A program made the translations under genes and the position numbers. A stretch of DNA of 63,908 bases, counting the filler, from Asterionella formosa (lineage: Eukaryota): NCBI GenBank assembly GCA_002256025.1. It is 11 parts of 10 records of this genome, joined end to end, with 100 filler letters (N's around TTAATTAATTAA, not from the genome) between each part and the next. Parts side by side here need not be neighbours in the genome. Positions count along the whole stretch, not along the records: positions 39,338 to 45,786 come from NKIB01012706.1; 10 more parts are not named here. The stretch is one strand, 5' to 3'. The notes beneath the pieces are model-generated. The model had not been told where the DNA came from and searched no databases. It saw only the letters and a program-made list of their open reading frames with translations. How positions within the stretch are numbered: the first letter of the stretch is position 1; the number at the start of each line of letters is the position of its first letter. Positions 25,457 through 63,908 of this stretch are shown here, one piece after another.

Positions 25457-25649
25457 TTGCTTGATTCATTATGTTCGTACCTAGCATATTTAGTCCAAAA
25501 CATGAATTTACTCGATTTAACATTGGCTCTCACTTTTTAGGTTGCAAGAGCCAATGTTTTGAAGATTTTGAACTGAGAGCCAATGCTAAATCGAGTAAAT
25601 TCATGTTTTGGACTAAATATGCTAGATACGAACTTAATGAATCAAGCAA
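25457..25649. repeat. Long near-perfect inverted repeat (76-bp arms, 3 mismatches, 41-nt loop); foldback/MITE or hairpin RNA locus
   Basis: 25457-25532 is the reverse complement of 25574-25649. Confidence 0.9.
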
Positions 25650-25650
25650 T

Positions 25651-26137: not shown

Positions 26138-26724
26138 NNNNNNNNNNNNNNNNNNNNNNNNNNNNNNNNNNNNNNNNNNNNTTAATTAATTAANNNNNNN
26201 NNNNNNNNNNNNNNNNNNNNNNNNNNNNNNNNNNNNNACATCTCTACTCGATAGCATTTTATGTAGTCTAGCGATCCTATCGAATTCCAGTTATTCCCGG
26301 GTCGTCGATATTCTTCGAATGCATATTGCAGGTTACGAAAGTGATGCCATGATCAACTCACATGATTACCATGCTCACCTCTACTACTCAGGCCGTTGTG
26401 CTACCAGAGGGGAAGTGGGAGGGCTTTGCAAGTTAAAGATTTTTGAACCCTGTATGCGCGCTGCCGTATGAAAGATAATTATGGATTCATCGTCATCACT
26501 CAGGGGGGGAGTTTTGTTCCAGCAAATATAAGTATTCAATATTGAGCGGTATAATGAAGACAATAGTAAAAGTGTGATTGATTGTTCATAACAAGTGTGT
26601 ATATGATCTAGATGGAGCGTGATGTAGTAACATGCAACACTGTCTCTACTGACAGAAGCCACATATCGGTACATACATTCAGGACATGTGATTTCCAGTT
26701 GTTTTATGTACATGCTACACTACT

Positions 26725-29166
26725 TTAAATATGGTCCTCAAGAAAGATATCCTTTGCAAAGTCATTGCTTGCGTTCAAAAAATGCAAGCTGGCCTGGAGC
26801 GTCACCAGTGCGTAGCCTTCTTTGCCCCTGAGCAACTGATCATCGCGGGCAAATTCCTCCACAAAGGCGATTTCAGCATTGAGATTGGGTACTTTTGCTA
26901 CACAAATGTGCTGGCAGGCCATCTTTAACAAAGAATCTGCACTCAAGTTACCACCATCGAAATGGTCCGCGATTCGTTCAAGAAAGACGACACAGTATTG
27001 AAGCTTATCAACCACAGAGTGAGCCTCAGGGATCTGATTCAATGCCTTAATTGCATCTTTCGAGATATCTGAAGCCAAGTGATCAGGCTCAAAAGCGTTA
27101 AACTTGGAAGTCAAGGCATCGTCTGTTGGTTTCATCTCCTGGATGATCTCAGCAAACACAGAGTCATACAGTTCCCCAAAGACCAAGGTTTCGACAGCAG
27201 CGGCGCTCATTTCTGTAATCCTTGTCGAATGCGCGAATCCAGGTCTGACTTCCAAGAGGGTAGCAGTGACGTGCTTGATGACAGCATGGGTATCTTGGCG
27301 ACGAGCTCGGACTACCCCTTCGTATGGGTCAAGATTCCTTCTGGATTCATTCGAGATAGACTCATCACTTGATTTGGCAGTATCCTTTCTTTCCCCTCTA
27401 GAATCTCGTTTATCGCTCCTGCTGCGGTGCTCGTGAATTAAACTTCGGTACACATGACCTGGAACAGTGTATTTACAATTCAAGCTTCGACTCACAAGCA
27501 ACAAAACCTTGTCTTCAGTCGGAATCTCAAATTCATCTGTATACACAATATCCTCGTCCCGCTTGCTTCGTTCTTGTCTTTCCAGTTGTGCTTGCTTCTC
27601 TGGCGAGCTCGAGAGCATCTGAAGGAACGACGTAGTAGGTACAGGAGTGGATCGTTTCACATTGGCAGTTATTGCATCCCACTCGGGGTCAATCCAAACA
27701 TTTGGTCGGACCAACAGAACTTTGCGATTTATGTCTTTCTCGCCTATAGTCAGAATTCGTTTCTTGTGGTGATCTTGTAGCTTCTGAGCCACTGTAAAAC
27801 CAGCAGCTGCTGCTCCTGCTACACCAGCTACAAATATTCCAATAGAGTAAGAGCCTTCCAAAGCCACTCCAATAAAGCCAACAGTTTGACCGCACTTTGC
27901 TCCTAGAACCGCCCCCGCAGGTCCAGCTACGAACAACCCAGCTACACCGCCAGCGATTCCCCCCGCGACGGAGGCGTAACCTATTTTTTTACGCAAAGAA
28001 GTGGAAGTTTTTGCAGCTTCGTATGTATCATTCGCGAGTCGCAAGATGGTATTTGTTGCTTTGGGTGGCTCGACTTCGCTCAGCAGTGCCTCGACCTCTT
28101 TCTTGCTATCGTCGACCACCTTCTGTTGCATATCAGATGGCGAGAGAACAGAAGCTGTATTGTCCTTGATGAGAGCCCTCGTAATCCATCGTTTCACTTC
28201 ACCCTCGTTGAGGCGATTGTCGTTGCAATCTTCGTCTGTCGACATCAAGGGTTCGGCAACTTCGTCACCTTGGACATGGACTACGTAGTCCAGTTTGGAT
28301 GTTTGGAAATGACAAAGAATATTTTCTTGTAGTGCTCGGGCTACAGCAAAAAATGTGCTTTCTCCTATTGACGTCATCGAGGTCGTTTCGTCGTGTTGTG
28401 AAGGCAATGCCAATGAGTCAACCCCAGGTGTAACAAGCATCACCTGGTCCTCGGGTTCATTGATAACTGATTTCATGGAGTTTGACGAAGCCCAATGCTG
28501 TGGCGGCCCATCATTGGTCCATACGAATGATTTCTGCGAAGAATCGAATTGTTCGCCTTTGGTCTCCTCATCCGTTGTTTCTGTTACCTGACTATCTCTC
28601 AGCGCCAAAAGATTTCGGAACGAGCTCAGTAAACTAATCGAGGGAAACATAGATTCACTCATCCATGTATTTTCTTGTTCGTGTTTTGATAATTCATCAC
28701 GTTCGTCAATTTCGTCAACGGAAGCCATCTTGTTCGGCTGTTCCAATTGTGTTGACTCAATTTCAGTCCCACTATCAGCTGGGCAAGACATATGCGTATT
28801 CGATTCAATCGAACTGCTTGAGTTAAAGGTTTCATCGTCTCCTTGTTCGGAAAATATCAGCGGTCCGTTCACGGGGCATTTCAGAGCCCAACTTGTTTCC
28901 TCGTTCCTAGCGCAAGCACGATGCGCATAGAAACCGCAAGCAAGACAACGAACGACTTGGTCTGATCCGCCAGTCCCCAGAACAGTCCGCAATCGATGTT
29001 CACAGCCTGCACAAGTTCGCATCGGCCCGGATATTAGGAATGAGACTTGTTGGAAAGAGTGATAATGAATTGGGTGAATGCATTTGCGTGATAATTCCAT
29101 GCTGGTAATAGTTTGTTCCAAAACGGAAGTGGCTTCGTGGGACTTCGTCACTTCTTGCTCGTTCAT
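26725..29166 (-). CDS. C1 (DAG/phorbol-type Zn finger) + glycine-zipper/TM segment + C-terminal VPS9 (Rab5 GEF) protein
   Basis: H-x12-C-x2-C..C-x2-C-x4-H-x2-C..C near the N-terminus; GGIAGGVAGLFVAGPAGAVLG; LSADSLL..LRGKEGYALVTLQASLHFL. Intact 813 aa. Confidence 0.8.
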   Translation of the reverse strand: MNEQEVTKSHEATSVLEQTITSMELSRKCIHPIHYHSFQQVSFLISGPMRTCAGCEHRLRTVLGTGGSDQVVRCLACGFYAHRACARNEETSWALKCPVNGPLIFSEQGDDETFNSSSSIESNTHMSCPADSGTEIESTQLEQPNKMASVDEIDERDELSKHEQENTWMSESMFPSISLLSSFRNLLALRDSQVTETTDEETKGEQFDSSQKSFVWTNDGPPQHWASSNSMKSVINEPEDQVMLVTPGVDSLALPSQHDETTSMTSIGESTFFAVARALQENILCHFQTSKLDYVVHVQGDEVAEPLMSTDEDCNDNRLNEGEVKRWITRALIKDNTASVLSPSDMQQKVVDDSKKEVEALLSEVEPPKATNTILRLANDTYEAAKTSTSLRKKIGYASVAGGIAGGVAGLFVAGPAGAVLGAKCGQTVGFIGVALEGSYSIGIFVAGVAGAAAAGFTVAQKLQDHHKKRILTIGEKDINRKVLLVRPNVWIDPEWDAITANVKRSTPVPTTSFLQMLSSSPEKQAQLERQERSKRDEDIVYTDEFEIPTEDKVLLLVSRSLNCKYTVPGHVYRSLIHEHRSRSDKRDSRGERKDTAKSSDESISNESRRNLDPYEGVVRARRQDTHAVIKHVTATLLEVRPGFAHSTRITEMSAAAVETLVFGELYDSVFAEIIQEMKPTDDALTSKFNAFEPDHLASDISKDAIKALNQIPEAHSVVDKLQYCVVFLERIADHFDGGNLSADSLLKMACQHICVAKVPNLNAEIAFVEEFARDDQLLRGKEGYALVTLQASLHFLNASNDFAKDIFLEDHI

Positions 29167-29867
29167 TCTTTTAAGTTTTGACCACAGCCAACAATCTCTC
29201 GCAACTCCTTATCGAAGCAAACAAGTAAGATATCTTGACGGGACATAAAGGAAGCAGTGTTGCTCAACTGCGATGCTTGCTGATTGACTTCGGCACGGCT
29301 GTCGTCATGATCGCTGTTCACCGATTCTTTCAAATTTTGACTTCAGAACGGTACCGGGACTATTGTTACCTGCCGGTCTTCCGTGTTGAGCAAGGATGCA
29401 TTGCTCACATGGAGTTCTGTTTGTGGACTCAGTCGACTGCATAGGGGTAAAATGAATGCTTGCTTGTCTGTATGGAATGATGTGGGGAATTCAAGTGAGA
29501 TTCCTAGGCAAGATTCGAGTCTGGACGCCTGACAACAATAACACGCACTTGCTTTATTCAATCCAATTATTGAGATCAGAAGTACCCTAGTACCTGGTAC
29601 CAGGGTACCGGTATGTTCGATACCAGTAAACCCTACTGGTAGTAGGTACCTGCTACAGGAAGATGATGTAACAAGATATGTGGACGTACATAATTCTACG
29701 TAATTTGTCAACACGTACTTCATGCTTTTCCCAACCCCACGTCGGTTGAAAGCCCGAATCCTTGCTTGGTTATATTTGCTTCGGTTACTATCGATTGCGT
29801 GCCTCACACCACAAGAAAGAACACATATTTTCCGCTTTTTTGTTTCTCAATTGAACAATAAAGCACA

Positions 29868-32561
29868 ATGAAGTTCTCGATGTATGCTTTGGCTGCTACG
29901 GCTCTTGCCGCTAGTGTTAACGGCTTTGCGGTCCAGACCTCTGGACGCTTCGCTATTCGTCAGGTATGAGGAACTTCACGAGAATCGATTATAGTGTTCA
30001 GATAACGGTGGATTGATCGAGACAAGGAATGAGAGCCTTATTAAGGTCGTTCCCATTATAATGTCTTTGGGATCATGACAGCGAGCCCTATTGATATGTG
30101 GCTCATGGGAGTCACTTGGCAGACGATGGGCATACTAGTGTGTGCCCCCAATCACTTTATTGTTCTGAATCGCATCGCTCACTCGATTTCCTTTTGTCTC
30201 CTTTGCGATTCAACCTTCTTCAATCAAACTTATTATTTCATTTACTTTGGTGCATACTTTCTCATCTCTATTGCTACTGACTGGTATTATACCTACTGTT
30301 TTTTCTACCGACACAAACAATGAATGCCAGGCTGCGTCGCTCAAGATGTCTTCAGCTGTTGATGTCGACACTAAGACTGCCCTTCTGATCGCTGCCAACG
30401 AGGCCCGTGGACTTGCCATGGACTCAATCGCTGCCGCCCACTCTGGCCACATGGGACTTCCTCTTGGTTGCGCCGAGGTTGGAGCGTCCCTTTACGGATC
30501 ACAGGTATGTTTTCCCTTGCCAACTTCGTGGAACGCAATCAATTGCAGTCTCGCATGCGTAGGGTGATGGTAATTCACCTACGTACTATTTCGGTCACCG
30601 AGAAAGAATGACGTCGCACCTTAGTGACATCGAGCCGCTCATTTTTTGATTTTTTTTCTCACCCTTTTTTGCAATCCGATTGTTTCTCATGTCATCAGAT
30701 GACCTATAACCCCAAGGACCCACAATGGATCAATCGCGATCGCTTCATCCTTTCAGCTGGACACGGATCGATGTTCCTATACTCTTGGTTAAACATTGCA
30801 GGTTTTGATCTTCCCATGGAGGAAGTTGCCAATTTCCGTCAGTACCACTCGATGACACCTGGCCATCCTGAATTCCCCAACTCGGAGCACAACACCCCTG
30901 GAATTGAGTCCACCACTGGTCCTCTTGGACAGGGTGTTGCCAACGCTGTTGGACTCGCCGCTTCCGAAAAGATGGCTGAGGCCGTCTACAACACTCCTGA
31001 GCACAAGATCTTTGGACACCACATCTACGTCCTTGCCGGAGATGGTTGCTTCCAGGAAGGTGTCTCTGCTGAGGCCGCAGCCTTTGCCGCCCACGAGAAG
31101 CTTGACAACTTGATTGTCCTTTACGATGCCAATGAAGTCACTCTCGACAAGATGGCCGAATATACACAGTCCGAGGACATCATCATGCGCTACAAGGCAT
31201 ACGGTTGGGAGACCTACGACATTGATGGTCACGATCTTGATGCCGTCGAAGCCGCTATCTCAGCTGCCAAGGCGAGCGACAACGGCAAGCCTAAGTTCAT
31301 CAAGTGCAATACCATCATTGGAAAAGGTATGGAAGAGACTGAGGGAACGAACGCTGCTCATGGAGAGGCTGGTGTTCCATACGTCACCAAGGCCAAGCTG
31401 AACATCGGCCTCCCTGAAGGCGAGAAGTGGTATGTTTCCCAGGGAACCCGCGACCTCTTTGCTGATGTCCAGAAAAAGAACACTGCTATTTATGATGAAT
31501 GGCAATCAACTTTCGCCGCCTGGAAGGAAGCCAACCCTGAACTTTCCAAACAGCTTCACAACGCCATCAGCGATACCGTTCCCACTCCTAAGGAATTCTT
31601 CACCGCTATCCCTGAGATGAAGTCTGGTGCTGAGGCCACCCGTGTGTCCGGAAATAAAGTTATCCAGTACATTTCAAAGCTTGTACCTCAATATGTTTCT
31701 GGATCCGCCGATCTTCACGGATCTACCCGCAACTACATCAACGAAGGAGGAAACTTCGGATCTGGATTTGATAAGACCTACGCCGGAAAGAACTTGTACT
31801 TCGGAATTCGTGAACATGCCATGGGATCTATCATGAATGGATTTGCATACCACGGTCTTTTCAAGATCTCTGGATCCACATTCGCCGTCTTCGTCGATTA
31901 TTTCCGCCCAACCATCCGTGTTGCAGCGCTTGCCGAGCTAAATGCTGTTTCTTACATTCTCACCCACGATTCTATCGGTGTTGGTGAGGATGGCCCTACC
32001 CATCAGCCTGTGGAGACCGTCTCGGGCCTCCGTGTCTTCCCTAACCTTGATGTCTACCGTCCTGCTGATGCTGAGGAGACAGTTGCCGCGTTCGTCCATT
32101 CGGTTACCCACAAGGAAGGACCAACGGCCTTGATCTTCTCTCGTCAGAACATTGTTCAAAATGACGACCTTGATTACATGGTCCGTCGTGAGGGATCTAT
32201 GAAGGGAGCCTACATCGCAAAGACTGAGAGTGCACCTCTTGACCTTATCATCATCGCGACTGGATCGGAGGTCCAGCATGCCCTTGCCGCTGCCAAGGAC
32301 CTTCCAGGTGCCCGTGTTGTTTCCATGCCTTGCATGTCCGTCTTCGAGCGCCAATCGGATGAATACAAGGAGTCCGTTCTCCCTTCGTCTTGCACCAAGC
32401 GTATTGCAATGGAAGCCGGTGTCTCCGGACTTTGGTACAAGTATGCTTCTAAGGTTGTCGGTGTTGACCGTTTCGGTTTCTCCGCCCCTGGAGACATTGT
32501 CATGAAGGAGCTTGGTATGTCCGCTGAAAACCTCTCTGCCGAAATTGCTTCCATGAACTAA
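29868..32561 (+). CDS. TKL: Plastid-targeted transketolase (exons 29868-29963, 30331-30504, 30699-32561)
   Basis: Signal peptide [20 protein letters not shown] + transit peptide. [52 protein letters not shown]. Two phase-0 GT-AG introns. Confidence 0.97.
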
Positions 32562-32788
32562 ATAGGCAAGCAAACGAGATAGGAAAGAATCACTCTGTAA
32601 CCTCATTTTTAGACAAATATATCTGCGCTCCTCATCTTTTTTATTGTATAGTTACGCACGCTTTGTTGGACATGACATCTGCAGCGAGNNNNNNNNNNNN
32701 NNNNNNNNNNNNNNNNNNNNNNNNNNNNNNNNTTAATTAATTAANNNNNNNNNNNNNNNNNNNNNNNNNNNNNNNNNNNNNNNNNNNN

Positions 32789-32962
32789 ATGCATATTACC
32801 GTTATTTTGGTTGTCATGCTTAAATCGGCAATTGTATTGCCGAAAAATTCGATGTGCCCCATATTGCCCTTAAATAAAAATTACTTAAGAAATTACTTAG
32901 AGCCTAAAAATTACTTAGAAGTACCCGAATGGCAAAACGATAGCTGGAGCGGAAATTGCCGT
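32789..32962 (+). repeat. Copy of the terminal region of the pogo-like element (second copy ~39037-39203)
   Basis: gtcatgct.aa..ggcaatt..cgaaaaattcgatgt.ccc.atattgccc.taaataaaaa..acgatagctggag..gaaattgcc is present in both copies. Confidence 0.75.
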
Positions 32963-33583
32963 TGTACCGGTAAATGCAGGCCTTACAGGAAGTTGATCCT
33001 CCAACCCTACATGACAAACATGCTCAAAGTAAAAAGGAATCTTTCTCATTTACCTGTAGTACAAACCGTCTTTCCTGGATTGGCTTCACAGAATTTGATA
33101 TTCTAAAATAACTTGTTCACGCAACCACAGAGCGAGTCATGTTCAACGGCTGAAAATTATTTTATATATTATTCATGAATCATTATGTCCCTCTGATTTC
33201 ACGCCGAACAGCTCATACATACTTTAGCAGATGAATGACTACCGGTATTTCACACATAAAACATGTTTGGTGAGGATGAAACGTACGAGGACGTGATCAC
33301 GTTAGTTGGTACAAGGGTACCAGGTACTCACTCCGGAGTACCAGGGAACATGACTATACTGGAATATTCGTCATGGAATACCGGTACCGGTACTCCAGCA
33401 GGAAAAAATTTGGCCAACTTGTGGTACTCCACTTTGTACTCTCGCAGGTACATACACTACAAGGTACCTGGTACCTGGTACCAACAAACCATCATTCTTG
33501 CTTCTCCCGCTTGTAGTGCTCATATTGCAATATTTGCACACATAAACTTGTTCGGGTCAAGGGCTGCGGATTCGTTGCTAACC

Positions 33584-34791
33584 ATGCTGTCCGTTTGCAA
33601 AGAGCTTTCGCCGCGAACGGAAATCATACTCGCTGTAATATCCTACTCGCTTTGCTCGGGAACACTAGTATTGGTCAACAAACTGATTCTCCACTTCCTG
33701 CCATTCCCTTCCCTTGTCATTACCTTCCAGCTATGGGCAACTCTCATTTTTATCATTACTGCTCAGTGTATGAAGATATTGAAGGTGGATCCTATTCGGT
33801 GGAAAGTTATCGTTCCTTATTTGGCCTACACGGTCGCATTTTCCCTTGGAGTGTATTGCAACATGCAATCACTCTCGACGAGCAACGTCGAAACTGTTAT
33901 TGTTTTCCGAGCCTTGGCACCGTGTCTCGTTGCCTTGTTGGATGCCATGTTCCTGGGACGAGAGTTTCCTTCAACAAGATCCTGGATTTCTTTGTCGCTC
34001 ATCTTTTTGGGTGCGTTGGGGTATGCATCCTTTGATCCGAAGTTTCAATCTCAGGGTATGCAAGCATATCTGTGGCCATTGGCATATCTTGCTACGATTT
34101 CCTTTGAAATGGCTTATGGAAAGATAATTATCAGGTCAGTGGATCTCAAAACAAAGTCCGGTCCTGTCTTGTACACCAACTTGCTAGGGTGGCCTCCAAT
34201 GCTGCTTTTTGCCAAACTTGGCGGGGAATATGACCGCTTCTGGAATGAAGTTTGGTTGAACGAGGGGGTGAAATTTCCACCAGGCAGCATCGCTATTTTG
34301 ATACTAGGATGTGTGGTTGGAACTGGAATAGGATATTCAAGTTGGTGGTGCCGTGACAAGGTCTCGGCGACTTCGTTCACTCTAGTTGGAGTTATGAACA
34401 AATGCTTGACAGTGCTATTGAATCTTCTTATATGGGACCAACATGCACCGGTACGTGTGATGTAGAAGTATGGATGGGATTGGAGCCATGGCCAGGATGT
34501 GCCTAGAATCTTTGACATTGCTGACATTCGCTTTCACCACCTTAGCCCATGGGAATCGCGTCTTTATTGATTTGTTTGGTGGGAGGCAGCTTTTACAAAC
34601 AAGCACCAATGCGCGCAAACCCCAAGTCAGAAGAAAGAAAGAATTTAATCTCCAATGAAGAAGGAGTATGGGATGATGATCTAGCTAGTGTTGCACATGA
34701 CGAAGACGTTGAATTGTTGTCTCTGTCATCAACTCCAACTGGTGCCTGTGTGACACCGGATAAATCGGGTGTTCAGCGACGGGCAAACTAG
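33584..34791 (+). CDS. Golgi nucleotide-sugar transporter, GONST-like (GDP-mannose/GDP-fucose) (exons 33584-34450, 34546-34791)
   Basis: Multi-TM; YSLCSGTLVLVNK, SNVETVIVFR, SATSFTLVGVMNK, WDQHAP|PMGIASLLICLVGGSFYKQAP. GT-AG intron 34451-34545. Confidence 0.9.
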
Positions 34792-39203: not shown

Positions 39204-39498
39204 TTCAGCGTCAATGTCATCATTCAGACATGAATATNNNNNNNNNNNNNNNNNNNNNNNNNNNNNNNNNNNNNNNNNNNNTTAATTAATTAANNNNNNN
39301 NNNNNNNNNNNNNNNNNNNNNNNNNNNNNNNNNNNNNTTGGAAATTTAAAGAAAACGCATTGCCCTTGAAACTTGAAAGGCAAAGCTTTGGAGTTCGGCA
39401 AAGGATTCTGCATTCAGTAATCGCAGAAATCCAGTCTCCCCGCCAACGTGGCCATCATCGTTCAGGTAAAAAAGGAGTGTCGCAAGGCCTGTTTATTT

Positions 39499-39665
39499 TG
39501 TTGAGGGGAACCTTGTCGTGAATAAAGGTGAACTACAATATTATGACTATTCTATTGCTGTTTCGAGTACATCGTTGTTAGCACTCACGCATGTACCTAA
39601 TCTGATGGCTGCGCCGGTATGGTTCGTACGGCGCATGTATGGAGCATCATATGCAGATATAAACA
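39499..39665 (-). repeat. 3' LTR
   Basis: 167 bp, preceded on the minus strand by purine-rich ggtaagagtg (PPT-like). Confidence 0.95.
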
Positions 39666-42600
39666 CACTCTTACCAACAGATTCAGGGAGAACAACAGGA
39701 GCTGGGGTGGAGATGATATCAGCAGTGGAAGCCAAGCACGCATAATAGTTAGGAGGACTAGGGAGGGATGGAGGGCAATGGAGATAGTGTGGGTGCATCA
39801 ACATATGATGGGAAGCGGGATGATGTTTAGTGAAATAATCAGCACGATTCAAACTACCTTTTTTCCAGTATACAAGAAATTGGCCTTGGCGAACACGATT
39901 GCGTACCCAGAAATAATGCATATCCATAGCTTTGGAGCATTTTTGTCAGACGGTATCATTGGCGATGCCACTGGCAGTGCTATTATTGGTGACAATACGG
40001 GTAGAAGGTTGGGGATGACCAAGCTCAACAGGAATGTTGCAAATAGCATATGCCTCTTTGCCATTGTGGAACAAAGCAACTAATTCGGCCTCAGCAGCAC
40101 TTGATAAAACCTCCTTAAGAATTTGACAGTGTACGTAAATAGCACCGTTAAGAGGAGGGATGGACGTAGTGAGGCTAGGCAGAGACAAGGGTAACAGCTG
40201 AGAAAGTGAATGCCGGCAGCGCGGGAGTGACCACGTGTTTCAGATAGATAGGAGGCATCGCTTTCAACATGGAGGACCATGTCACTGGCAGTAAAGCGAA
40301 GTGTGGCTGGCTTCAGGATGAGTGGCACAATAATTGAGAAGGTGAGTAATAGCAGTCAAGGTAGCCACAGTGAATAGCATGGGCATAATACAATTAAGTA
40401 CCAAGAATCTCCTGCACACGTGTTTTATCATGGAGGTCAAGGACAGGAGTGACATCAGGAACATCAAATTGCTGGCAAGCGCCATAACTAGGTGCAGTCC
40501 AGGCATGGGGGGCATGTTGTGGGTGTGTTGGGTTGGAGTGTGTGAATCGTTGTAGAGCACAAACAATGTAACCAGGCATAGTGAGTGCGATGTTCGTAGT
40601 CCCACCTCAGCGTAAGGACAATGTAACGAGAGCCAGTCCAATCAGTTGTGAGACGGTATTTGGTACGTAAAGTGGGGAGGAGACGGTCCATGTCACTACG
40701 TTTGATGTAATGTACACCAAAATCATCAACAACAAGCGTAAACATGAGATCACTGGTGGTATCCATCCATAGGCCAGGGGTGACTGGGCAGGGGAGGTAA
40801 TGATGAGGGAGCAAGAACTGAGCAAGTTGATCATTGGCAAGTTTACCAGCCTGAGGCAGCCCCATACATGCCACAAGGATTTCGGCATAGATGTGCCCAT
40901 CAATGATGTTGGGAGCTAGGTTGTAGAGGGTTTGAATGTGTGGGGGGATCATCCATATGGGGATGCGCACGTATTCATGCTGGGCAGGTGCAAGATGACT
41001 TTCCAGATAAAAATCAGATAAATCCAGAGTCATGAAGCGGCCATTGGGGGTACTGATGGTGCTGTTGAACAAACATTTTGCAGTAGGGAGATCAGCAGTC
41101 TTGGTGCTGACATTGCCAGTGTAAATGACACAATCACCCCCAGCGGTCCAACGAACACATTGGGGAATGGTTTTTCCGGGACGACCGGCGCACACAATGC
41201 GGATGTAAGTGGCGCGTTTGTGTGAGGGCATCTCATGCTTATGAATGAAAAAACAGCAATTAGTACCCGTGAGCATGTCAGAATGGGGTCCCAATCCCTG
41301 AAATAACCGGCCAATATCTAAGCCATTGGCGGTGGCCCACAGGGGAGCAGTGCTGCAAGTCAATAATTCTCTATATCCAGCAATTTTGGTATTGTCAGGG
41401 TTGATAGCGGTGCCATGGAAACAAAAATTACTGTCCAGGGGAGTAGCATTGGTTTGAGGAGGGGCGGAGAGAGCACAGTTCTTGGCAAGCAAAGATTGGG
41501 TGTGGGGACGGCTGGCATGTGGTGCATCACGTGGGGTGTTTTTATGGCGACGACGGCTCTTGGGCACAGTGGTAGTGTCATAAGTGTCCGAAGGGGAAGG
41601 TGCTAGGGGACTGGGCAGCACAACAGCATCGCGATAGGTGTGAGGGGATGCTGGAATGATCTTGCGGCCACTGGCAGGAGGGGACCTAGGGGTAGGGTTA
41701 GGGTTACCGGCGAGGTGAGGGTTAGGGTTTGGGGTAGGGTTAACAACACTCGAGTCGGTAGGGTTAGGGTTAGGGGTAGGGTTAGGGTTAAGCACCCTCA
41801 GTGGTTGGGCAGCACCATCGAGGGCTGGAGAGACCGGGAAAGGTATACAGGCATCAGGATCAGGGAGAAGGGGGATGGTGGATGCTGTGGGTGTACCGGA
41901 CACCCTCAATGATGGAATGGGGTGATGCAGGAGGGGAGCGTTGGGTAGGTGGGTGAGCGAGCTCAGGCGGGGAGAGAATTTCAAGGAGCTGCTGGAGAGC
42001 AGCTTTGTGGGTTGCAGTGAGTGGGGCAACGGGAGACCGAGTAGTGGGATGTAACAAGGCATAGGCAATGTCCTGCAAACTGGTCGTGATGAGATCAGTG
42101 GATGAATTACAGGGTAGGTGGACTTTGGTTGGAAACTACGAGACAGTACTATTGCAGATTCTGATTGAACGTGTGTCCCACATCCAGATGCGGTAGCAGC
42201 GATAGGAATCCACAGCAGGGCCGACATACCAACCATCGAGAGCATGCGGAGCCCATGTTGTGCAGTGTTGGGGCTTGGCATGAACAAGGACCCGACAGCC
42301 AGGTGGAGCAAGGGGGACACGGTTGTAATCATATGTTCCATTGACCTATGCCCAAGCAGACAGTTTGGGGTTGATGCGTGAGCTACGGAGGAGATTAAGA
42401 GTAAGTTCAGCTTGAACTAATAGTTGGTACCACAAGTTGAGAGGAAAGTCTTTGTCGACACTGCATAGACCTGCAATGAAATAGTTTGAAAGGTGCGAAT
42501 CGCACGTTCAGCAGCATTGCGACGATGGACAGCCGGCGGGACCAACTGAAAGTCATTAGCTTCGGCGTCCAAGAACCCCTTGAGGAGTGTAGAACACTCG

Positions 42601-44910
42601 TTGTCAAGGCGTTGAAGTTTGGGACGTAGGCCAGCTTTGCACAAGCGTTGGTGTAATGTTCTATATGCTGCAAGGAGGCAGGAAGCGGTTCGGTTATGAA
42701 AGGGCTGAACGAAAATGTAGTTGCTGTCGTAATCATATAAAATCATAATGTAGTTGTTTCCAGCGCTGGAGGGGAGTATGAATTTTTCGGTTTGATCCGT
42801 GTAAATTTGGCCTGTGGGTGCAATAATGGATGCAACACACATATGGGTAGGGGTTGCAAGACCCTCAGGGTGGAAATCAGCATCACCCAGCACATTGGTA
42901 GGAAGGGATCCAAGTTCAGGCTCAATGATAGTTGGGGGCACACGTGTGGATCGTACGTTTTGACGTTTTTGATCGAGGTGGCCTTTGATGGTTGCGATGG
43001 AATGAGGGGGATGTTTGCGTAGTGTAGTTAAGGTTAGACCCGGAAAATTTATAAGATACTCATGGAGTAATGCGCTTTCCAAAGTAGAGATAACAGGAGA
43101 AAAGAGGGCCGCATGGGCAAAGGCAACAAGGACTGGTGCATTGGGACTGCCAATGGCGGTAGCAGCGTAGTGGTTAGGGGTAGGCAATGGTGGATCAATA
43201 GTGGCAGTGGTGACATGCCATAATCGAGTGGTGGTGGAGCGATGGCCCTGAAGGATGCAATGACCATCAGATAAGACAGACATGTGCAGTTTGGTGAAGA
43301 GTACCTCGTAGCCGGAGTCACATAGTTGTCCAATGCTCAATAAAGAGCAATTTTGCAGACCAGGGACAATGTGTACATGACGAGCAGCGGGTAGTAATAG
43401 CATAGGTAAAGATAATTCGGCCTCATGTGTAGATTTAACATGGTTGCCATTAGGAAGTTGAATGGTGATAGGGTTGGTGGTAGGTTGTTTGTTGATGACA
43501 GGTAAATCAACAGTGGCGTAATTGCCGTTGGTGGTAGGTTGTTTGTTGATGACAGGTAAATCAACAGTGGCGTAATTGCCAGAACTACCCGAATCTGCAA
43601 TGAGTGTGATGGGGGGAAAAGTGATGGGAGATAAGTTTGTGTTAATAGCATTATCGACAGCAACTTGCTCCCCTCCACATCAAGCAAGTGGTGAAGGTGG
43701 CGGTGAAACACGGGGTGGCTGGGTGGGACGGGTACCATCACTGAAAATACGGACGCTGCCACCCATACGTCGATCAAGGGTGGCAGTGATTTGATGGCCG
43801 GAAGATGGATGATTGCAAGTTGCACTGGTATGGTCAGGGTTTTTGGTGAGACCATGAGTCCAACAATAGCCTAATTGGACATTGTTTTAAGTGTATCCAG
43901 AAGGGACAGCACGAGCAGCTGCAGCAATACCTTTCAATGGGGGAGGGCCACTGGTTTGAATGGCAGCATGGGCACCATGATAACCGGCGGTGGTGGCGGT
44001 GGCAAGGCGCAATCGTTCCTTATCAGCATGCATGAAATGCGGGCAAAAATTAACCCATATACGGTCCATCTCAGCGCGATCACGCCAAGTTTGAATGCTA
44101 TGAGAATATACACCAGCCTGTTCTAAAGCAGAAAGAGTCAATCGCATGACAGTACTGTCAGAGAAAGGTTCCCCACCAGCATCAGCAATGGCACAAAGAT
44201 GTTTGATGCGGATCCATAAATGTTCAATAGCTTCCTCTGGTGTCCACGCATCAGCCAAGCGCATGCAATTAAGTTCTTAATCATCCGCACTCAACGTTGC
44301 ATATGTAGATTCTAAGTGAGCAAGCAAGGTCAGAACAGTGATGTCGGCATATCCAAATGTAGCATCTTCCAGAACGTTGTAGTAAGTTGGGTCAATGGCT
44401 GTTAGAATTTGTTGTCGGAGAATTTCACGGATTTGGGAGTAATGGCGGAATGATGCATCAAGGGAGGTGTCAAAGAGATGGTTGGCAGCAGTGATTTGGG
44501 ACTGTGTTGCAGTAGCACTGTGTGGCGGCTGGGTACCGGGATGTTCGGGCGGTAAAAAGGGTTCACTGGCACGTAAAAGATAAGGAGCAGCAGCCATGAC
44601 AATACCAAGGAAACCATTGACACCACCACCACTGGTACAGTGGTGGACAGTGCGAGCATTGGCAAAGAGTTCCTTGCGAAGGTGGGTTACAGTAAGGGCT
44701 GTAGGTTTGCCCTTGATCGGCGTCAAGAGCGGATGAGGGAATGGGAAAACAGCGGAAACGATTGTAGTTGCCATGGTGGAAGAAGGCCCGAGAGACAGGG
44801 AAAGCGAACGGGCAAGCAGTGCTGCTGTATGGTTGATTGTTGAGAACAGTGCTGGTTTGCACCGCTGACAAGAGCCGCAACGTCACAGGTGCGGACAAGG
44901 GAGAGAACAG

Positions 44911-44922
44911 ATATTGTAGTTC
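44911..44922 (-). promoter_or_regulatory. Non-tRNA primer-binding site (gaactacaatat), complementary to LTR 44954-44965
   Basis: Abuts the 5' LTR, lacks TGG, and forms a perfect 12-bp inverted repeat with the LTR. Confidence 0.65.
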
Positions 44923-45089
44923 TGTTGAGGGGAACCTTGTCGTGAATAAAGGTGAACTACAATATAATGACTTTTCTATTGCTGTTTCGAGTACATCGTT
45001 GTTAGCACTCACGCATGTACCTAATCTGGTGGCTGCTCCGGTATGGTTCGTACGGCGCATGGATGGAGCATCATATTCAGATATTAACA
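44923..45089 (-). repeat. 5' LTR
   Basis: 167 bp, 7 substitutions versus the 3' LTR. Confidence 0.95.
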
Positions 45090-45689
45090 TATTTCTTTAT
45101 CTAAATACATGTAAAATCTTCAGTATCCTACTATTCCCTGCAATAGATGTGACCATGTCTAGCTATAGTCAACGAACTGCTCGCTCAGCCGAACATCATA
45201 TTACCGGCATGTAGGCCATCATGCATTCGGCGGGATTGATCACCAATTGGATCGTCGCTCACACCTCCTGCCCATGAGCGATCCTCTATGCGAACCACTC
45301 CATTTATGATGGCACGAACCAAAGCGATTCGCTGATGATACCGGTACTTGGTACCTGGTAGTCTGTATACTGGTGATGGTACTGGTACCAGGTACCTTGT
45401 ATCAGGTTACCAGAGTACCAGTACCTGGTACCAGCAAATGAGTTGTGGTATCGTTGCCTGGTGTAATGGATATATATATATAAAGAATTTATAAATAAAA
45501 TGGCCGCAACTTGGAGGTACCTGGTACCACTACCTTGTACCACCGGTAGTTCCCTAAATCTTGGGGTAACTGAAATACCTGGTGGTACCCTGATTCTATC
45601 ATGATTTGATTCTGCTTCCATTTCACTTTCAATCACACAAAAAGTCAAACAAAGAAACTCAACAAAACCAACCTAAGCAACAAGGAAAC

Positions 45690-53310: not shown

Positions 53311-54417
53311 TTATTCTGATTGTTTAATAGCAATGTTCTTCTTGACTAATGCTACCCAATCTTCATCTTGCTGCTCTGTCAACACAAGAGGATAGTATTC
53401 TGGAGGCAATTTGCTTTCATTTTCACCGTCACAATCTTTATTGACAATTCCTTTTTCTCCACCCAACGACTGGAAACATCCGATACCAGAAAACAAATGT
53501 GCATGCTCAGGTAATGCCGAAACCGCTGGATTGATAAAGACCATCATTGTGGTCCATATATGTTGCGCATTGTAAGGCTCGTCCTCCACAATAATGGAGG
53601 CAGTCTTATTTTCTTGTTCTTTTGAAGCTATGCCCTGAATTTCCAATGACATTTCTTCAGAGTATTGAAAGCCATACATTTGCATCTTGCGAATCCACCA
53701 TTTTGTTGTGTGCACTTCGACATGATGCCATCCTCCCCAATTGGAGTGCGTTGCAAAGATCAAGGCCGACTTGCGAAACACGGGCAAGTAATTCTGATGA
53801 AAGTTGACCCCCACATGTTCCAAGAATTCCACACACCACACTGCGTCTTGGGTCTTGGCAGGCCACCAAGGACCTCTTGAAAAGTCATGCTCAATTACCC
53901 GTTCTATTGGCATCATGGTTTGTAGTACAGCATCATGGGAACCCTCCACACAGGTGGCATCGACCCCATGAGTCAAGAACCAACTAGTGCTAATGCCCCG
54001 TCCACAGCCCAAATCGATCAATGTCTTGATGCCATAATCTTGCACCATGGCTTTCCACACGGCAGGGGAAATGCCCTGCAAATCAATATCTGTAAACCCT
54101 CCTAAATGCACCTTGTCGCCTTTACCACCGTAGACTACATGGGCCGTAGTTCGAGATGTTTCCACCTTGCTGTCGTCAACGCGGATCGACGGCAGATTCG
54201 GCGTGGTGCCTTGTGGAATCGCCAATGAATAATCGTAGGCGCCAGAGGATGAAGCGCCATCAGATTGGAGCAAGGCGAAGTGCTCAAGTGTAGCATCATT
54301 TTCGTTGAATCTGTAGATGAAGAGTGCCAATAGGAAAGCCAAGAGGAGCACTGTGAATCCAAGGAATGATGATGGCTTGGAGTGGCCATGGGCTTTGGAT
54401 GACTTAATTGGTGCCAT
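53311..54417 (-). CDS. Type II membrane class I SAM-dependent methyltransferase-like protein
   Basis: Short basic N-tail + single TM (FLGFTVLLLAFLLALFIY); motif I LIDLGCGRG; HDFSRG; VWCVEFLEHV. Intact 368 aa. Confidence 0.8.
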   Translation of the reverse strand: MAPIKSSKAHGHSKPSSFLGFTVLLLAFLLALFIYRFNENDATLEHFALLQSDGASSSGAYDYSLAIPQGTTPNLPSIRVDDSKVETSRTTAHVVYGGKGDKVHLGGFTDIDLQGISPAVWKAMVQDYGIKTLIDLGCGRGISTSWFLTHGVDATCVEGSHDAVLQTMMPIERVIEHDFSRGPWWPAKTQDAVWCVEFLEHVGVNFHQNYLPVFRKSALIFATHSNWGGWHHVEVHTTKWWIRKMQMYGFQYSEEMSLEIQGIASKEQENKTASIIVEDEPYNAQHIWTTMMVFINPAVSALPEHAHLFSGIGCFQSLGGEKGIVNKDCDGENESKLPPEYYPLVLTEQQDEDWVALVKKNIAIKQSE

Positions 54418-61169: not shown

Positions 61170-63908
61170 CTCCCTCCATCCGAAAATAGGTGCATCGATT
61201 ATCGTAACCCTCATTGCCAAGCAGCTTATTTTAGCACGGATTATGTATTCTACATACCAATTTTCAATGTGAGGGTCGGCTTACTCGAAAATATGCGTTT
61301 TTTATGCGTTACATAGACATAACATATAGTCTGTTTTTGTAATTAAATATTTAGCATCTAAATAAAATTAATCGAAAGCAATTTGACATACATATATACA
61401 TTGGGTACATGTTTTATCAAACAATGCTAATGCATTGATTCTTCTAGTATTATTTTATCTACTTCTTCCATCATCATTATTGGCATCGTCAAAATGAATG
61501 TTGACAATAACAACGTGCCCATTCATGATGGTCAGGTCCTAGGCTTGATGGCAAGCAATAAAGGGCACAGCTTTGCCCATCATCGTTATTGCGGATTAAC
61601 TGTGAAAGTTGGATTAGGGGTCTATTTTAATTGATGTACAGTGCTGGACGAGGTCCTAAAAGAACTCGAGGATGCAATCCAGGTGACGATGAACTGTGAC
61701 CTCCATCCAGAAGTTCAAAGGTGCAGAGTTGGATATCTTTCCAGAAGAATTGCTCAGGACACATTCAAGGCAAGGAATTATGTTCATCGCACTGCAGTAG
61801 TTATTGAACTGCTAAAAAACTCTAAGGAGCGAAAGAAAAAAAGAATGAATATGCGAGGTTATGGATTTGCGCTATTTACGTTCCTTGATGAAATTTTCAA
61901 GATTGAAGATGCTATTAAGGAGGAGGAGTTCATCGAAATAGATGATCACCAGTTAGATAATAGCAATTCTACTGATGTGTAGTAGATAAAATAATAGACT
62001 TACTATTCAGTTGAAGATCAAAATTACAATAGATGTACTCCAAATAGCACTGCATTTATATATAAATAAAAATATTAAAAAGGAGGAATGTCTGTCAATC
62101 CAATGCAGCCATAGTTGCGCCGGCAATGAAAAATCCCTTATCTGCACACTCTATTATTAGAACTCTTCATCGAGAAATGTGCCAGCAAATTCAATTGCTG
62201 CTTCCCTTGCAGATATCCTATCCGGAAGCAATCCCACCAGATCTAAAGCTGCCTCTCCCATGTGCGGTATATCATCATAGTTATTATCGCCATTCACCAA
62301 ATGATTTCCTTCATGCAACCCNNNNNNNNNNNNNNNNNNNNNNNNNNNNNNNNNNNNNNNNNNNNNNNNNNNNNNNNNNNNNNNNNNNNNNNNNNNNNNN
62401 NNNNNNNNNNNNNNNNNNNNNNNNNNNNNNNNNNNNNNNNNNNNNNNNNNNNNNNNNNNNNNNNNNNNNNNNNNNNNNNNNNNNNNNNNNNNNNNNNNNN
62501 NNNNNNNNNNNNNNNNNNNNNNNNNNNNNNNNNNNNNNNNNNNNNNNNNNNNNNNNNNNNNNNNNNNNNNNNNNNNNNNNNNNNNNNNNNNNNNNNNNNN
62601 NNNNNNNNNNNNNNNNNNNNNNNNNNNNNNNNNNNNNNNNNNNNNNNNNNNNNNNNNNNNNNNNNNNNNNNNNNNNNNNNNNNNNNNNNNNNNNNNNNNN
62701 NNNNNNNNNNNNNNNNNNNNNNNNNNNGTAGATATATTCGTTTGTTGTCATCGGGCCAATTCTCTTTATTCACAGCCAGCCAGGCAAAACATGATTGTTC
62801 ACAATCATGTCAGCATATGTCTGCATGGTAACTGGAAGGGATTTTGTTTCCATTGTCCCTGCTGGTCGATAAGTAGAAGTCCTTTGGGCTGCCTTTTGGT
62901 GAACAAATGGCCAAATACCAATTTTACCGTCAAACACACTCACTTTGCTGTCATCGAAACGCAGACGGGCTACAGCAGAAACAAGGAACATAACCTCTTC
63001 GATATGATCTTTATGTCTTGTTTGCCATGTGGGAGCCTCCTCTCTGTGAGCCAGATATATCTTTTTCCTCTGCAACAAAAAACCACTTTTGATCTACATG
63101 GACCTGGTCGTAGAAGCCAACATGATATCCAAACAGTCCCAGGTCGAAGTCAATGTCAGGGGAAGGATTTTCTTGATCTGGATGGTTTAACTGTAAATGA
63201 TTAACACAATAGTCTACATGAAACGACTAATCTTACCCTCCTCCGAAAGCTTCGGTTTCAGCACACTTGAGTGCGGTCGTAATACATCCCTTCTATTATC
63301 AAAGACTGTTGACTTCGGAAGGGCAAATGCAGCTGCTAACTTACGATAACAAGTACTACGCTTGCAATATGGGATATCTGCAATTGCTGTAATTATTTCC
63401 TCACGATTATATTTGAGAGGACGCCCGGCCAAGAATTTGCGGGAAGGCAACAATGCAAACATGTCAGTATCACCATTATAATTGGATTCGAGCGCACAGT
63501 TCCAAATACATTGTATAGTTCTTTTTATCAACTTTGAACCAGCCCACCAAATATTTAAAGGTTCCATGCACTCAAATGAGCCAACCATCAATTTTGTCAT
63601 CTCCATCTGGTCCTCTTTTGAGGCTCCGTAAACCATAATCCAACACAAGTTGATGGTCTTCTGGTGTTAGATCCCTTCTCATATGCTTGTTGAGAAGATG
63701 TGGTAGCAAAAAAATGGGGGGTCAGGCATCTTGATTTTGCTCGAGAGGAGCAAAAGTGGAAATCGAAAAAGCCCAAAAACGTTGTTCTCAAATGTAGTTG
63801 CCAATTTTTATTTTTCTATATATTATTTAAGCAAGCCGCACAATTGGGCAATTGAGACGGAGAATATCGTAGGAGTCAAAATGGCCCCGGAGAAATTTGA
63901 AAAATCGA
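61170..63908 (-). mobile_element. Mariner-like (plant/oomycete DD39D-type) DNA transposon, decayed; probably extends past the window
   Basis: TA|CTCCCTCCATCC Stowaway-type TIR at 61170. Transposase remnants ~62150-63700: GRPLKY, HVDQKWFF, VMFLVSAVARLRFD..FDGKIGIWPFV..AAQRTSTYRPAGTMETK. Confidence 0.82.
61494..61982 (+). pseudogene. Passenger ORF inside the mariner element, HIRAN-like, frameshifted
   Basis: VLGLMASNKGHSFAHHRYCG..EDAIQV..CRVGYLSRRIA, acidic tail. Confidence 0.4.

What the first reader, a model, noticed from the sequence alone, without database searches (positions are those of the whole stretch)
44911..44965. Ty1/copia element with a self-complementary PBS: Tf1-like self-priming geometry instead of a tRNA primer
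Seen: on the element (minus) strand the 5' LTR ends ..cctcaaca and is followed directly by gaactacaatat. There is no TGG, so a tRNA 3'-CCA cannot pair there. This 12-mer is the perfect complement of atattgtagttc lying 31 nt upstream inside the LTR, and that LTR 12-mer is unchanged in both LTRs. The polarity puts the 3' C of the LTR 12-mer against the first base after the LTR, as a primer requires. Established: self-priming by the transcript 5' end plus RNase H cleavage is characterised for Tf1/sushi Ty3/gypsy elements, whereas copia elements normally use tRNAs or tRNA halves. Inference: this diatom copia lineage primes from its own RNA, with an unusually short (~31 nt) strong-stop template. 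It may already have been noted for CoDi elements; I cannot check.
Basis: partly seen in the sequence, partly recalled or inferred. Interest (0 to 1): 0.78.

Follow-up and report, generated by a model that had tools for sequence, protein, structure and literature searches.

The report
Self-priming hairpin in diatom copia retrotransposons
A decayed copia-type jumping gene in a diatom genome, like most of its relatives, has in place of a tRNA primer site a short sequence that pairs perfectly with its own repeat end, so it most likely starts DNA copying from its own RNA.

Summary
On the minus strand a 5.6-kb LTR retrotransposon (39499-45089, 167-nt LTRs, 5-bp target duplication) has GAACTACAATAT directly after the 5' LTR. 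This is the perfect complement of ATATTGTAGTTC, 31 nt upstream in the LTR. One of 200,000 shuffles gave an anchored match this long.

The gene order is integrase before RT, and intact relatives hit Pfam RVT_2, so it is a divergent Ty1/copia. Named relatives and a host gene point to diatoms.

The decisive result comes from 78 related metagenome loci. Of 29 loci that should hold the 5' LTR/leader junction, 26 have a perfect 11-14 bp stem there, with the 3' arm starting right after the LTR end. The arms come in 22 different sequence pairs, so they covary. A conserved diatom initiator-like motif lies 2-4 nt upstream of the 5' arm.

A self-primed (Tf1-like) start of reverse transcription is the best explanation. 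Neither the transcript start nor the RNase H cut was mapped. Tf1's three-duplex "pretzel" structure is not supported. Self-priming is already predicted for plant copia (TAR lineage). I found no report for diatom elements.

The parts
45090..45094 (-). Target-site duplication, 5' copy (AAATA on the element strand)
   Evidence: consistent with the empty-site-like contig (checked).
44923..45089 (-). 5' LTR, 167 nt, TGTT...AACA ends
   Evidence: 160 of 167 positions identical to the 3' LTR.
44966..44970 (-). Initiator-like motif TCATT (TCAH+1W); predicted transcript start at 44967
   Evidence: Motif published for diatoms (PMC4686930, passages). CAHW sits at this fixed position in 29 of 29 aligned relatives and the full TCAHW in 20 of 29. 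The start itself is inferred, not mapped.
44954..44965 (-). 5' arm, the predicted self-primer core ATATTGTAGTTC; predicted RNase H cut after C 44954
   Evidence: The terminal C is invariant in 29 of 29 sequences and is followed by A in 27 of 29.
44923..44953 (-). 31-nt loop: the last 31 nt of the LTR and the predicted template of the minus-strand strong-stop DNA (functional R/U5)
   Evidence: The loop is 27-55 nt in relatives, most often 30-32.
44911..44922 (-). 3' arm, the primer-binding site GAACTACAATAT, starting at the first base after the LTR
   Evidence: The covariance model scores this site 66.2 bits, against 21.2 bits for the 3' LTR plus flank.
43887..44882 (-). Leader and gag-like open frames (ATG at 44774), with an in-frame stop at 44277-44279
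   Evidence: No Pfam hit.
42417..43679 (-). Protease (DSG motif) and integrase region
   Evidence: sequence read. 1080 relatives at E<=1e-10, the named ones from diatoms.
40488..42416 (-). Proline-rich linker and reverse transcriptase (RT core 41300..40491, VVDD motif)
   Evidence: Intact relatives hit RVT_2.
39547..40355 (-). RNase H region, broken by frame changes and an in-frame stop
   Evidence: Sister copies in RNA libraries differ here by small insertions and deletions (table 4).
39666..39675 (-). Polypurine-like tract GGTAAGAGTG directly upstream of the 3' LTR
   Evidence: Similar ...AGGGTG|TGTTGA junctions occur in L054, L047, L070 and L040.
39499..39665 (-). 3' LTR, holding the same 12-mer at 39541..39530 but followed by flank, not by a PBS
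39494..39498 (-). Target-site duplication, 3' copy (AAATA on the element strand)

Best explanation
The feature is the priming module of a self-primed Ty1/copia-type LTR retrotransposon of a diatom lineage.

Proposed mechanism:
1. Transcription starts in the 5' LTR at a conserved initiator-like TCAT motif (predicted +1 at 44967).
2. Nucleotides about 3-14 of the RNA fold back over a 31-nt loop and pair with the 12 nt that follow the LTR.
3. The element's RNase H cuts after the invariant C (44954). This frees a 14-16 nt RNA primer whose 3' C sits opposite the first base after the LTR.
4. RT extends the primer over the 31 nt up to the cut, giving a very short minus-strand strong-stop DNA.
5. This DNA then transfers to the same 31 nt in the 3' LTR.
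6. If the primer is later copied into plus-strand DNA, as reported for Tf1, each cycle rewrites the PBS from the primer. That would keep the two arms perfectly complementary.

What is shown: the anatomy, the exact LTR boundary, and the family-wide covariation. What is inferred: the transcript start, the cut, the extension, the strand transfer and the rewriting of the PBS.

The window copy itself is a decayed insertion with stops and frameshifts.
For: 1. Geometry. The PBS-position 12-mer is anchored at offset 0 from an LTR end fixed by the LTR pair, the 5-bp duplication and an empty-site-like contig. One of 200,000 shuffles reached 12 bp.

2. Relatives. 78 metagenome loci were fetched with a PR-INT alignment (40-89% identity to the window). 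In 31 of them the expected site lies fully inside the locus. Two of these (L047, L070) are a 3' LTR plus genomic flank, where no PBS is expected. Of the remaining 29, 26 carry a perfect stem of 11-14 bp whose 3' arm starts with G right after ...A of the LTR end. Nine further loci with only partial cover also have the stem, giving 35 loci and 38 instances in total.

3. Background. 23 other perfect stems of 10 or more bp were found in 322,029 nt. Of these, 20 are exactly 10 bp and none has this position.

4. Covariation. The arms fall into 22 different sequence pairs. On 29 aligned sequences, the 11 core pairs have 0 unpaired cells of 319. Nine of the 11 pairs show changes on both sides, with up to 5 pair types. 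The covariation score is 0.604 against 0.141 for shuffles (0 of 500 reach it) and at most 0.104 for slid partners. RNAalifold predicts the same 12 pairs.

5. LTR end in relatives. In L054 the LTR pair ends at ...CAATA just before the 3' arm. In L047 and L070 the same LTR ends there and unrelated flank follows.

6. Model scores. A covariance model built from the 29 sequences scores the window's 5' junction at 66.2 bits and its 3' LTR plus flank at 21.2 bits.

7. No CCA-type PBS. No PBS variant begins with TGG, so a tRNA 3' CCA end cannot pair. The primer-side C and PBS-side G are invariant in 29 of 29.

8. Start motif. CAHW lies at a fixed distance in 29 of 29 sequences, placing +1 14-16 nt before the predicted cut. 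It matches the diatom initiator-like consensus TCAH+1W (PMC4686930, passages). The longest stem (14 bp, L063) reaches exactly that +1.

9. Precedent. Tf1 pairs its first 11 RNA bases with the PBS, and RNase H cuts between bases 11 and 12 (PMC7175516 and PMC10085805, passages).

10. Distribution on the tree. In a quick, midpoint-rooted tree of the integrase core (64 rows), hairpin-bearing elements lie on both sides of the root, and the three loci without the stem form one clade.
Against: - The transcript 5' end and the poly(A) site were not mapped. All four RNA runs laid were assembled contigs, which cannot show starts.
- RNase H cleavage and the strong-stop product are inferred only.
- Tf1 needs two further duplexes (the 'pretzel'). 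Here the loop pairs with the 45 nt downstream of the PBS no better than with shuffles: mean z = -0.21, and 3 of 28 sequences fall below -1.64.
- Three of 29 loci (L040, L049, L057, one subfamily) lack the stem, and I could not say how they prime. L061 has only 7 contiguous pairs. L062 has one G-U pair and one mismatch.
- The 29 rows of the covariation alignment were picked by a search for perfect stems, so their 100% pairing is partly by construction. The unbiased figure is 26 of 29.
- No host genome or tRNA set was available, so tRNA halves were not excluded directly.
- A 31-nt strong-stop requires that the R region lie within those 31 nt, which is untested.
Confidence: 0.8

Rival explanations
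1. The hairpin is a conserved RNA structure with another role, such as packaging, dimerisation, translation control or masking of the 5' copy of a poly(A) signal. Reverse transcription would then be primed by something else not yet recognised.
For: A conserved, covarying stem shows only that pairing matters. The extra duplexes that Tf1 needs for priming are not seen. Fungal GalEa copia elements carry a conserved hairpin at the PBS position, and its authors could not assign it to any priming model (PMC5445492, passages).
Against: The 3' arm starts at the very first base after the LTR in the window, in L054 and in all 38 instances. This is where a primer's 3' end must sit. No other PBS candidate (TGG...) follows the LTR. 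Perfect pairing with only one G-U in 319 cells fits copying of the PBS from the primer better than selection on a structure alone.
Confidence: 0.1
2. The primer is a host tRNA or tRNA fragment (half or 5' fragment), as in copia, Ty5 and several plant copia lineages, and the LTR copy of the sequence is incidental.
For: Half-tRNA priming is typical of several Ty1/copia lineages: 1/2 tRNA-Met and 1/2 tRNA-Ile in plants (PMC6317226, passages). The host tRNA set could not be checked.
Against: This does not explain why each of 22 different PBS variants is matched perfectly by a sequence about 31 nt upstream in its own LTR. No PBS starts with TGG. The variable 5' parts of the arms are A/T-rich and start with A or T. 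Rfam finds no tRNA-like or other known RNA in the element (0 matches at E<=1).
Confidence: 0.03
3. The complementarity is chance or an assembly artefact.
For: Perfect stems of 11 or more bp with loops of 15-70 nt occur at about 8 other places in the 64-kb window. Many related contigs are circular walks through a collapsed LTR.
Against: An anchored match this long arose in 1 of 200,000 shuffles. The same feature, with different sequences, recurs in 26 of 29 loci, including contigs with true LTR pairs and flanks (window, L054).
Confidence: 0.01

Closest known systems
Tf1/sushi group of Ty3/gypsy chromoviruses (Tf1, Tf2 of Schizosaccharomyces pombe): experimentally shown self-priming
   Same: The PBS is complementary to the start of the element's own RNA rather than to a tRNA. 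The PBS lies directly after a 5' LTR ending in CA. The primer is short: 11 nt in Tf1 and a predicted 14-16 nt here, with 11-14 of them paired (PMC7175516 and PMC10085805, passages).
   Different: The superfamily differs: here integrase precedes RT and relatives match RVT_2. The three-duplex 'pretzel' is not supported. The pairing starts 2-4 nt after the predicted +1 rather than at base 1. The loop, which is the strong-stop template, is only 27-55 nt. Nothing has been shown experimentally here.
Plant Ty1/copia TAR lineage (including Houba and Osr-1): self-priming proposed or predicted
   Same: It is a Ty1/copia element that lacks a tRNA-type PBS and is predicted to self-prime (PMC6317226, passages).
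   Different: The host kingdom differs, and the lineage probably does too. Diatom CoDi elements are placed with Ty and GalEa in 'branch 1' of copia (PMC5445492, passage). I did not test the relationship to TAR and did not see the TAR hairpin geometry, because that paper's additional files were not read.
Fungal GalEa copia elements with a 'Conserved Hairpin Site' instead of a PBS
   Same: It is a copia lineage without a tRNA PBS and with a conserved hairpin at the PBS position (PMC5445492, abstract and passages).
   Different: In GalEa the first sequence after the LTR is palindromic. The authors report no complementary sequence within U5 and no fit to the Tf1 model. Here one arm lies inside the LTR and the other directly after it.
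CoDi (copia of diatoms) elements of Phaeodactylum and Thalassiosira, e.g. Blackbeard
   Same: The host group is diatoms. LTRs are very short: the Blackbeard LTR is 163 nt and the CoDi range is 153-844 nt, against 167 nt here. Both have TG/CA ends, a separate gag frame, and a size of 5.2-8.1 kb against 5.6 kb here (PMC2806351, sections and passages read).
   Different: That paper's main text says nothing about a PBS or priming (0 hits for 'primer binding', 'tRNA' or 'self-prim'). Its additional files could not be opened. Membership in a particular CoDi group was not testable without reference sequences.

Membership tests
Ty1/copia (Pseudoviridae) | Domain order protease - integrase - RT - RNase H | tested here: met
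   Window frames, read, run: DSG protease motif, then integrase core (DNE...HRRNAAERAIRTF), then RT (VVDD), then RNase H. In relative P0035, rve lies at 222-309 and RVT_2 at 891-1013 (rve scores 23.6 bits, below its cut-off of 32.6).
Ty1/copia (Pseudoviridae) | RT of the RVT_2 (PF07727) type | tested here: inconclusive
   The window's own frames get no Pfam hit at E<=0.01, or at E<=10 for the 3 of 6 frames tested that way. Of 9 long relatives, 8 hit RVT_2 at E<=0.001, and 4 are above the 31.6-bit cut-off: P0002 34.3, P0089 38.8, P0125 32.2, P0128 39.1. P0002 is 55% identical to the window RT.
Ty1/copia (Pseudoviridae) | LTRs with TG...CA ends and a 5-bp target duplication | tested here: met
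   TGTT...AACA ends and AAATA duplicated. Some relatives end in ...TA.
CoDi lineages of diatom copia elements | RT clusters with CoDi1-7 reference elements in a tree | not testable with these tools
   No CoDi reference sequences could be fetched. Indirect evidence only: the named relatives of the integrase come from Fragilaria crotonensis and Fistulifera solaris, and the named relatives of the host RRN3 gene are all diatoms.
Self-primed LTR retrotransposons (mechanistic class defined by Tf1) | PBS complementary to the 5' end of the element's own transcript | tested here: inconclusive
   The complementarity to an LTR sequence is met and covaries. That this sequence is the RNA 5' end rests only on a conserved initiator-like motif 2-4 nt upstream. 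The start was not mapped.
Self-primed LTR retrotransposons (mechanistic class defined by Tf1) | RNase H cut at the end of the primer, then extension from it | not testable with these tools
   This needs biochemistry. The only support is that the LTR boundary coincides with the base paired to the invariant C.
Tf1/sushi group (Ty3/gypsy chromoviruses) | Gypsy order (RT-RNase H-integrase) with a chromodomain | tested here: not met
   Integrase precedes RT. No chromodomain hit appeared in any Pfam scan.
Tf1/sushi group (Ty3/gypsy chromoviruses) | Three-duplex 'pretzel' RNA structure around the primer/PBS duplex | tested here: not met
   The duplex energy of the loop against the 45 nt after the PBS was compared with 300 shuffles each. 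Mean z = -0.21 over 28 sequences, and 3 of 28 fall below -1.64. RNAalifold finds only the central helix.

The most novel reading that the evidence does not exclude
Hairpin self-priming may be the ancestral and general mode of replication of the diatom copia (CoDi-like) radiation. It would work with a minimal module: an initiator, a 14-16 nt primer, a strong-stop template of about 31 nt, and no auxiliary duplexes. That would make it the simplest self-priming system known and a living example of the hairpin-primed ancestor postulated for LTR retrotransposons. The PBS would be rewritten from the primer at every cycle.
Probability: 0.3. Interest if true: 0.8.

Novelty: new variant of a known kind. 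Interest (0 to 1): 0.6.

Why it matters
Self-priming has been proven only in the Tf1/sushi gypsy group and predicted in one plant copia lineage. Here it appears, with unusually clear comparative support (22 covarying arm pairs), in the dominant transposon group of diatoms, which are major primary producers.

It matters in four ways:
- Annotation. LTR-element finders that look for tRNA-type PBSs will mis-score these elements, whereas the covariance model gives a specific signature.
- Evolution. It gives a second, structurally simpler form of self-priming in the other LTR superfamily. This bears on whether hairpin priming is ancestral (a view expressed in PMC3601003, passage).
- Testable predictions. 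It predicts an RNA-DNA strong-stop of about 45 nt and inheritance of the primer sequence at the PBS.
- Tools. It defines the cis elements needed to build marked diatom retrotransposons.

Tried and rejected
- Whole genome and host tRNAs. No genome is held for this window. ARAGORN found no tRNA in the window or in 28 of the 78 loci, the longer ones.
- Viral contigs. A scan with the RT found 5 pattern matches and none was confirmed.
- RNA evidence for the transcript start and poly(A) site. Ten runs were listed, all kept as assembled contigs. Four were laid (X1, X2, X5, X6). They hold sister copies 88-99% alike, but contigs cannot show starts. No place where molecules begin or end was reported, and no poly(A) loose end was seen at the LTR. 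This says nothing either way about the start site.
- Pretzel duplexes: not supported.
- The subfamily without the stem (L040, L049, L057). Relaxed searches allowing G-U pairs and one mismatch, reading of the intergenic region and the covariance model found no equivalent. There is only a conserved 7-9 bp hairpin just before gag, without covariation.
- Pfam on the window's own frames: no hits.
- Rfam on the element: 0 matches at E<=1.
- Earlier scan notes: nothing for this genome or for these words.
- Literature. Searches found no paper in the held library reporting self-priming or a PBS analysis for diatom elements. In one search, 2 papers hold 'self-prim' + 'diatom' + 'retrotransposon'; I read passages of both and neither makes the claim. 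Lin & Levin 1997 and Atwood-Moore 2006 are not held and are known to me only from reference lists.
- Supplements. The supplementary files of PMC2806351, which list the structural features of CoDi elements, could not be opened. They may hold PBS data.
- The careful tree search did not finish, so only the quick tree was used.

Full report
**1. The observation**

Read on the minus strand, the window holds an LTR retrotransposon from 45089 to 39499. The two LTRs are 167 nt long and identical at 160 of 167 positions. They begin TGTT and end AACA. The element is flanked by a 5-bp duplication, AAATA (45094..45090 and 39498..39494).

The 5' LTR ends ...CCTCAACA at 44923 and is followed at once by GAACTACAATAT (44922..44911). 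Its reverse complement, ATATTGTAGTTC, lies at 44965..44954, so 31 nt lie between the two. The 12-mer is unchanged in the 3' LTR (39541..39530). The match is exactly 12 bp.

In 200,000 shuffles an anchored match of 12 or more arose once, and the analytic expectation is 1e-5. The RNA folds into this stem at -14.2 kcal/mol with z = -4.4.

One contig of an RNA library joins 39486 to 45096. The 11 letters between match 10 of 11 letters of 39488-39498. That is the left flank plus a single copy of the duplicated 5 bp, as expected for an empty site.

**2. What the element is**

The frames read run in this order:
- gag-like frames;
- a protease with a DSG motif;
- an integrase core;
- a proline-rich linker;
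- an RT with a VVDD motif;
- an RNase H.

They are interrupted by in-frame stops (at 44277-44279, 42417-42419 and 39946-39948) and by frame changes, so this copy is decayed. Pfam does not recognise the window's own frames.

The RT nevertheless has 6374 relatives at E<=0.001. Of 9 long relatives, 8 hit RVT_2, the copia-type RT, and 4 of those are above the curated cut-off. One relative shows an integrase core upstream of the RT. This is the Ty1/copia order.

The named relatives of the PR-INT region come from the diatoms Fragilaria crotonensis and Fistulifera solaris. The window also carries ordinary eukaryotic genes: RRN3, a VPS9-domain protein, transketolase and a triose-phosphate-transporter-like protein. 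The named relatives of its RRN3 are all diatoms, at 38-46% identity: Fistulifera, Nitzschia, Cylindrotheca, Pseudo-nitzschia and Mayamaea. "A copia element of a diatom" is therefore supported. Assignment to a particular CoDi group could not be tested.

**3. Relatives and covariation**

An alignment of PR-INT relatives retrieved 78 metagenome loci at 40-89% identity. Many contigs are circular walks: their two ends repeat with a period of 5.1-5.9 kb, one element minus one LTR. Such contigs contain the LTR-to-leader junction.

*How often the stem occurs.* A blind scan of all 322,029 nt for perfect stems of 10 or more bp with loops of 15-70 nt gave 61 stems.
- 38 of them, in 35 loci, are 11-14 bp long.
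- These 38 lie 1090-1440 nt upstream of the protease (1947 nt in L054), or one period away.
- In all 38, the 3' arm starts with G directly after an A.
- The other 23 stems are scattered, and 20 of them are exactly 10 bp.

The expected site lies fully inside 31 loci. Two of these (L047, L070) are a 3' LTR followed by genomic flank, where no PBS is expected. Their LTR ends ...CATCAATA, exactly where the stem's 3' arm begins in their relative L054. Of the remaining 29 loci, 26 have the stem. The three without it (L040, L049, L057) are one subfamily.

*How the arms vary.* The arms come in 22 different sequence pairs. I aligned 29 sequences: the window, L062, and 27 of the 35 stem-bearing loci. Eight near-duplicates were dropped (L001, L010, L015, L016, L020, L035, L058, L072).
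- The 11 core pairs have 0 unpaired cells of 319 and one G-U.
- Nine of the 11 pairs show changes on both sides, with up to five pair types.
- The covariation score is 0.604, against 0.141 for shuffles (0 of 500 reach it) and at most 0.104 for slid partners.
- RNAalifold predicts the same helix.

These rows were chosen by a perfect-stem search, so the 100% pairing is partly by construction. The unbiased evidence is the 26 of 29, together with the diversity of the arms.

*Independent detection.* A covariance model built from the alignment finds the same sites. It scores the window's 5' junction at 66.2 bits and its 3' LTR plus flank at 21.2 bits.

*Distribution on a tree.* In a quick, midpoint-rooted tree of the integrase core, stem-bearing elements lie on both sides of the root, and the three loci without the stem form one clade with 100% support. 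The tree has 64 rows of 79; rows with stops or short matches were dropped, and the careful search did not finish. This suggests the stem is ancestral to the sampled group, but the root is not established.

**4. Mechanism**

The LTR's 3' boundary is the place where minus-strand DNA synthesis begins. The base just beyond it must therefore be paired with the 3' end of the primer. Here that base is an invariant G, paired with an invariant C that ends the LTR-internal arm (29 of 29). That C is followed by A in 27 of 29 sequences. No variant begins with TGG, so a tRNA CCA end is excluded.

Directly upstream of the arm, all 29 sequences carry CAHW, and 20 of 29 carry TCAHW. This matches the initiator-like consensus TCAH+1W proposed for diatom genes (PMC4686930, passages). 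It places the predicted +1 14-16 nt before the C, at 44967 in the window. The longest stem (14 bp, L063) reaches exactly that base.

The most economical reading is Tf1-like self-priming. The RNA's own 5' end pairs with the PBS. RNase H cuts after the C. RT copies the 27-55 nt loop (31 nt in the window) as a very short strong-stop DNA, which then transfers to the same stretch in the 3' LTR.

For Tf1, a paper known to me only from its title in a reference list reports that the self-primer is not removed. If the same holds here, the plus strand would copy the primer and rewrite the PBS at every cycle. That would explain why the arms are perfect in every family.

The anatomy, the boundary and the covariation are shown. 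The start, the cut, the extension, the transfer and the rewriting are inferred.

**5. What does not fit, or is open**

- Tf1 needs two further duplexes, the "pretzel" (PMC10085805, passages). Pairing between the loop and the 45 nt after the PBS is no better than for shuffles: mean z = -0.21, and 3 of 28 sequences fall below -1.64.
- The L040 subfamily lacks the stem. L061 has a weak version with 7 contiguous pairs.
- The RNA runs that hold sister copies are assembled contigs and give no starts or poly(A) ends.
- No host tRNA set was available.

**6. Comparison with what is known**

- *Tf1/sushi.* Self-priming is proven for this gypsy group (PMC7175516, PMC10085805). This element works like Tf1 in the central duplex but is not a member, because it has copia gene order, no chromodomain and no pretzel.
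- *Fungal GalEa.* These elements have an unexplained hairpin at the PBS position with a different geometry (PMC5445492).
- *Diatom CoDi.* The founding paper does not mention a PBS, tRNA or self-priming in its main text (PMC2806351), and its additional files could not be opened. Four literature searches found no report of self-priming in diatom elements.

**7. Verdict**

The feature is a family-wide, covarying primer/PBS hairpin of a diatom copia lineage, and it is best explained by self-priming (confidence about 0.8). It is a new variant of a known kind of mechanism: a new lineage with a simpler and shorter architecture. Interest is 0.6.

Noticed in passing
L001, L002, L007-L010, L015, L020, L022, L024, L025, L031, L034, L040, L052, L057, L063: Seventeen metagenome contigs have ends that repeat with a period of 5.1-5.9 kb, which is the element length minus one LTR. 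They are circular walks through a collapsed LTR. The cause could be an assembly artefact, tandem arrays or one-LTR circles; I did not distinguish between these.
   Followed up: partly
L040, L049, L057 (about 1080 nt upstream of the protease): The one subfamily without the primer/PBS stem has a very short region (about 180-310 nt) between the pol stop and the gag frame. It also has a conserved 7-9 bp hairpin (TTGTTTC.../...GAAACAA) just before gag, without covariation. How these elements prime is open.
   Followed up: partly
Alignment A2, columns 18-24 (window 44959..44953): The 3' half of the primer arm is much more conserved than the 5' half: mostly TAG[C/T]TC, followed by A. From recall only, and untested, this resembles the stretch of tRNAs that runs from position 8 into the D arm. 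It may instead mark the RNase H cut site.
   Followed up: no
window 39400-45200: Sister copies 88-99% alike occur in contigs of four metatranscriptome runs from freshwater, estuary and lake samples. They differ from the window copy by small insertions and deletions, for example at 40191, 40304, 40860 and 40876. This fits the window copy carrying private frameshifts.
   Followed up: partly
window 45350-45434; L033 1015-1061: A GGTACC-based palindromic short repeat lies about 260 nt beyond the element's 5' flank. A similar repeat occurs in the flank of a related element in L033.
   Followed up: no
window 6463-6562, 13027-13126, 19586-19685 and so on; 62322-62727: Pairs of 44-N runs recur about every 6.55 kb, and there is also one run of 406 N, for 1296 N in all. 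These look like masked stretches rather than biology. One pair (39238-39337) lies about 160 nt from the element's 3' end.
   Followed up: no
window 7238-7329: A long G run and a long C run face each other across a 10-N gap.
   Followed up: no
window 20811-34465, 53311-54417: Host genes near the element: an AIR carboxylase domain, RRN3, a VPS9/C1-domain protein, transketolase, a triose-phosphate-transporter-like protein and a methyltransferase. The closest unnamed relatives of RRN3 are 72-78% identical. Named diatoms reach only 38-46%, so the host has no close named relative in that collection.
   Followed up: partly
L054 1401 and 2290: Two perfect 12-bp hairpins lie in the genomic flank of the L054 element, outside it.
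   Followed up: no
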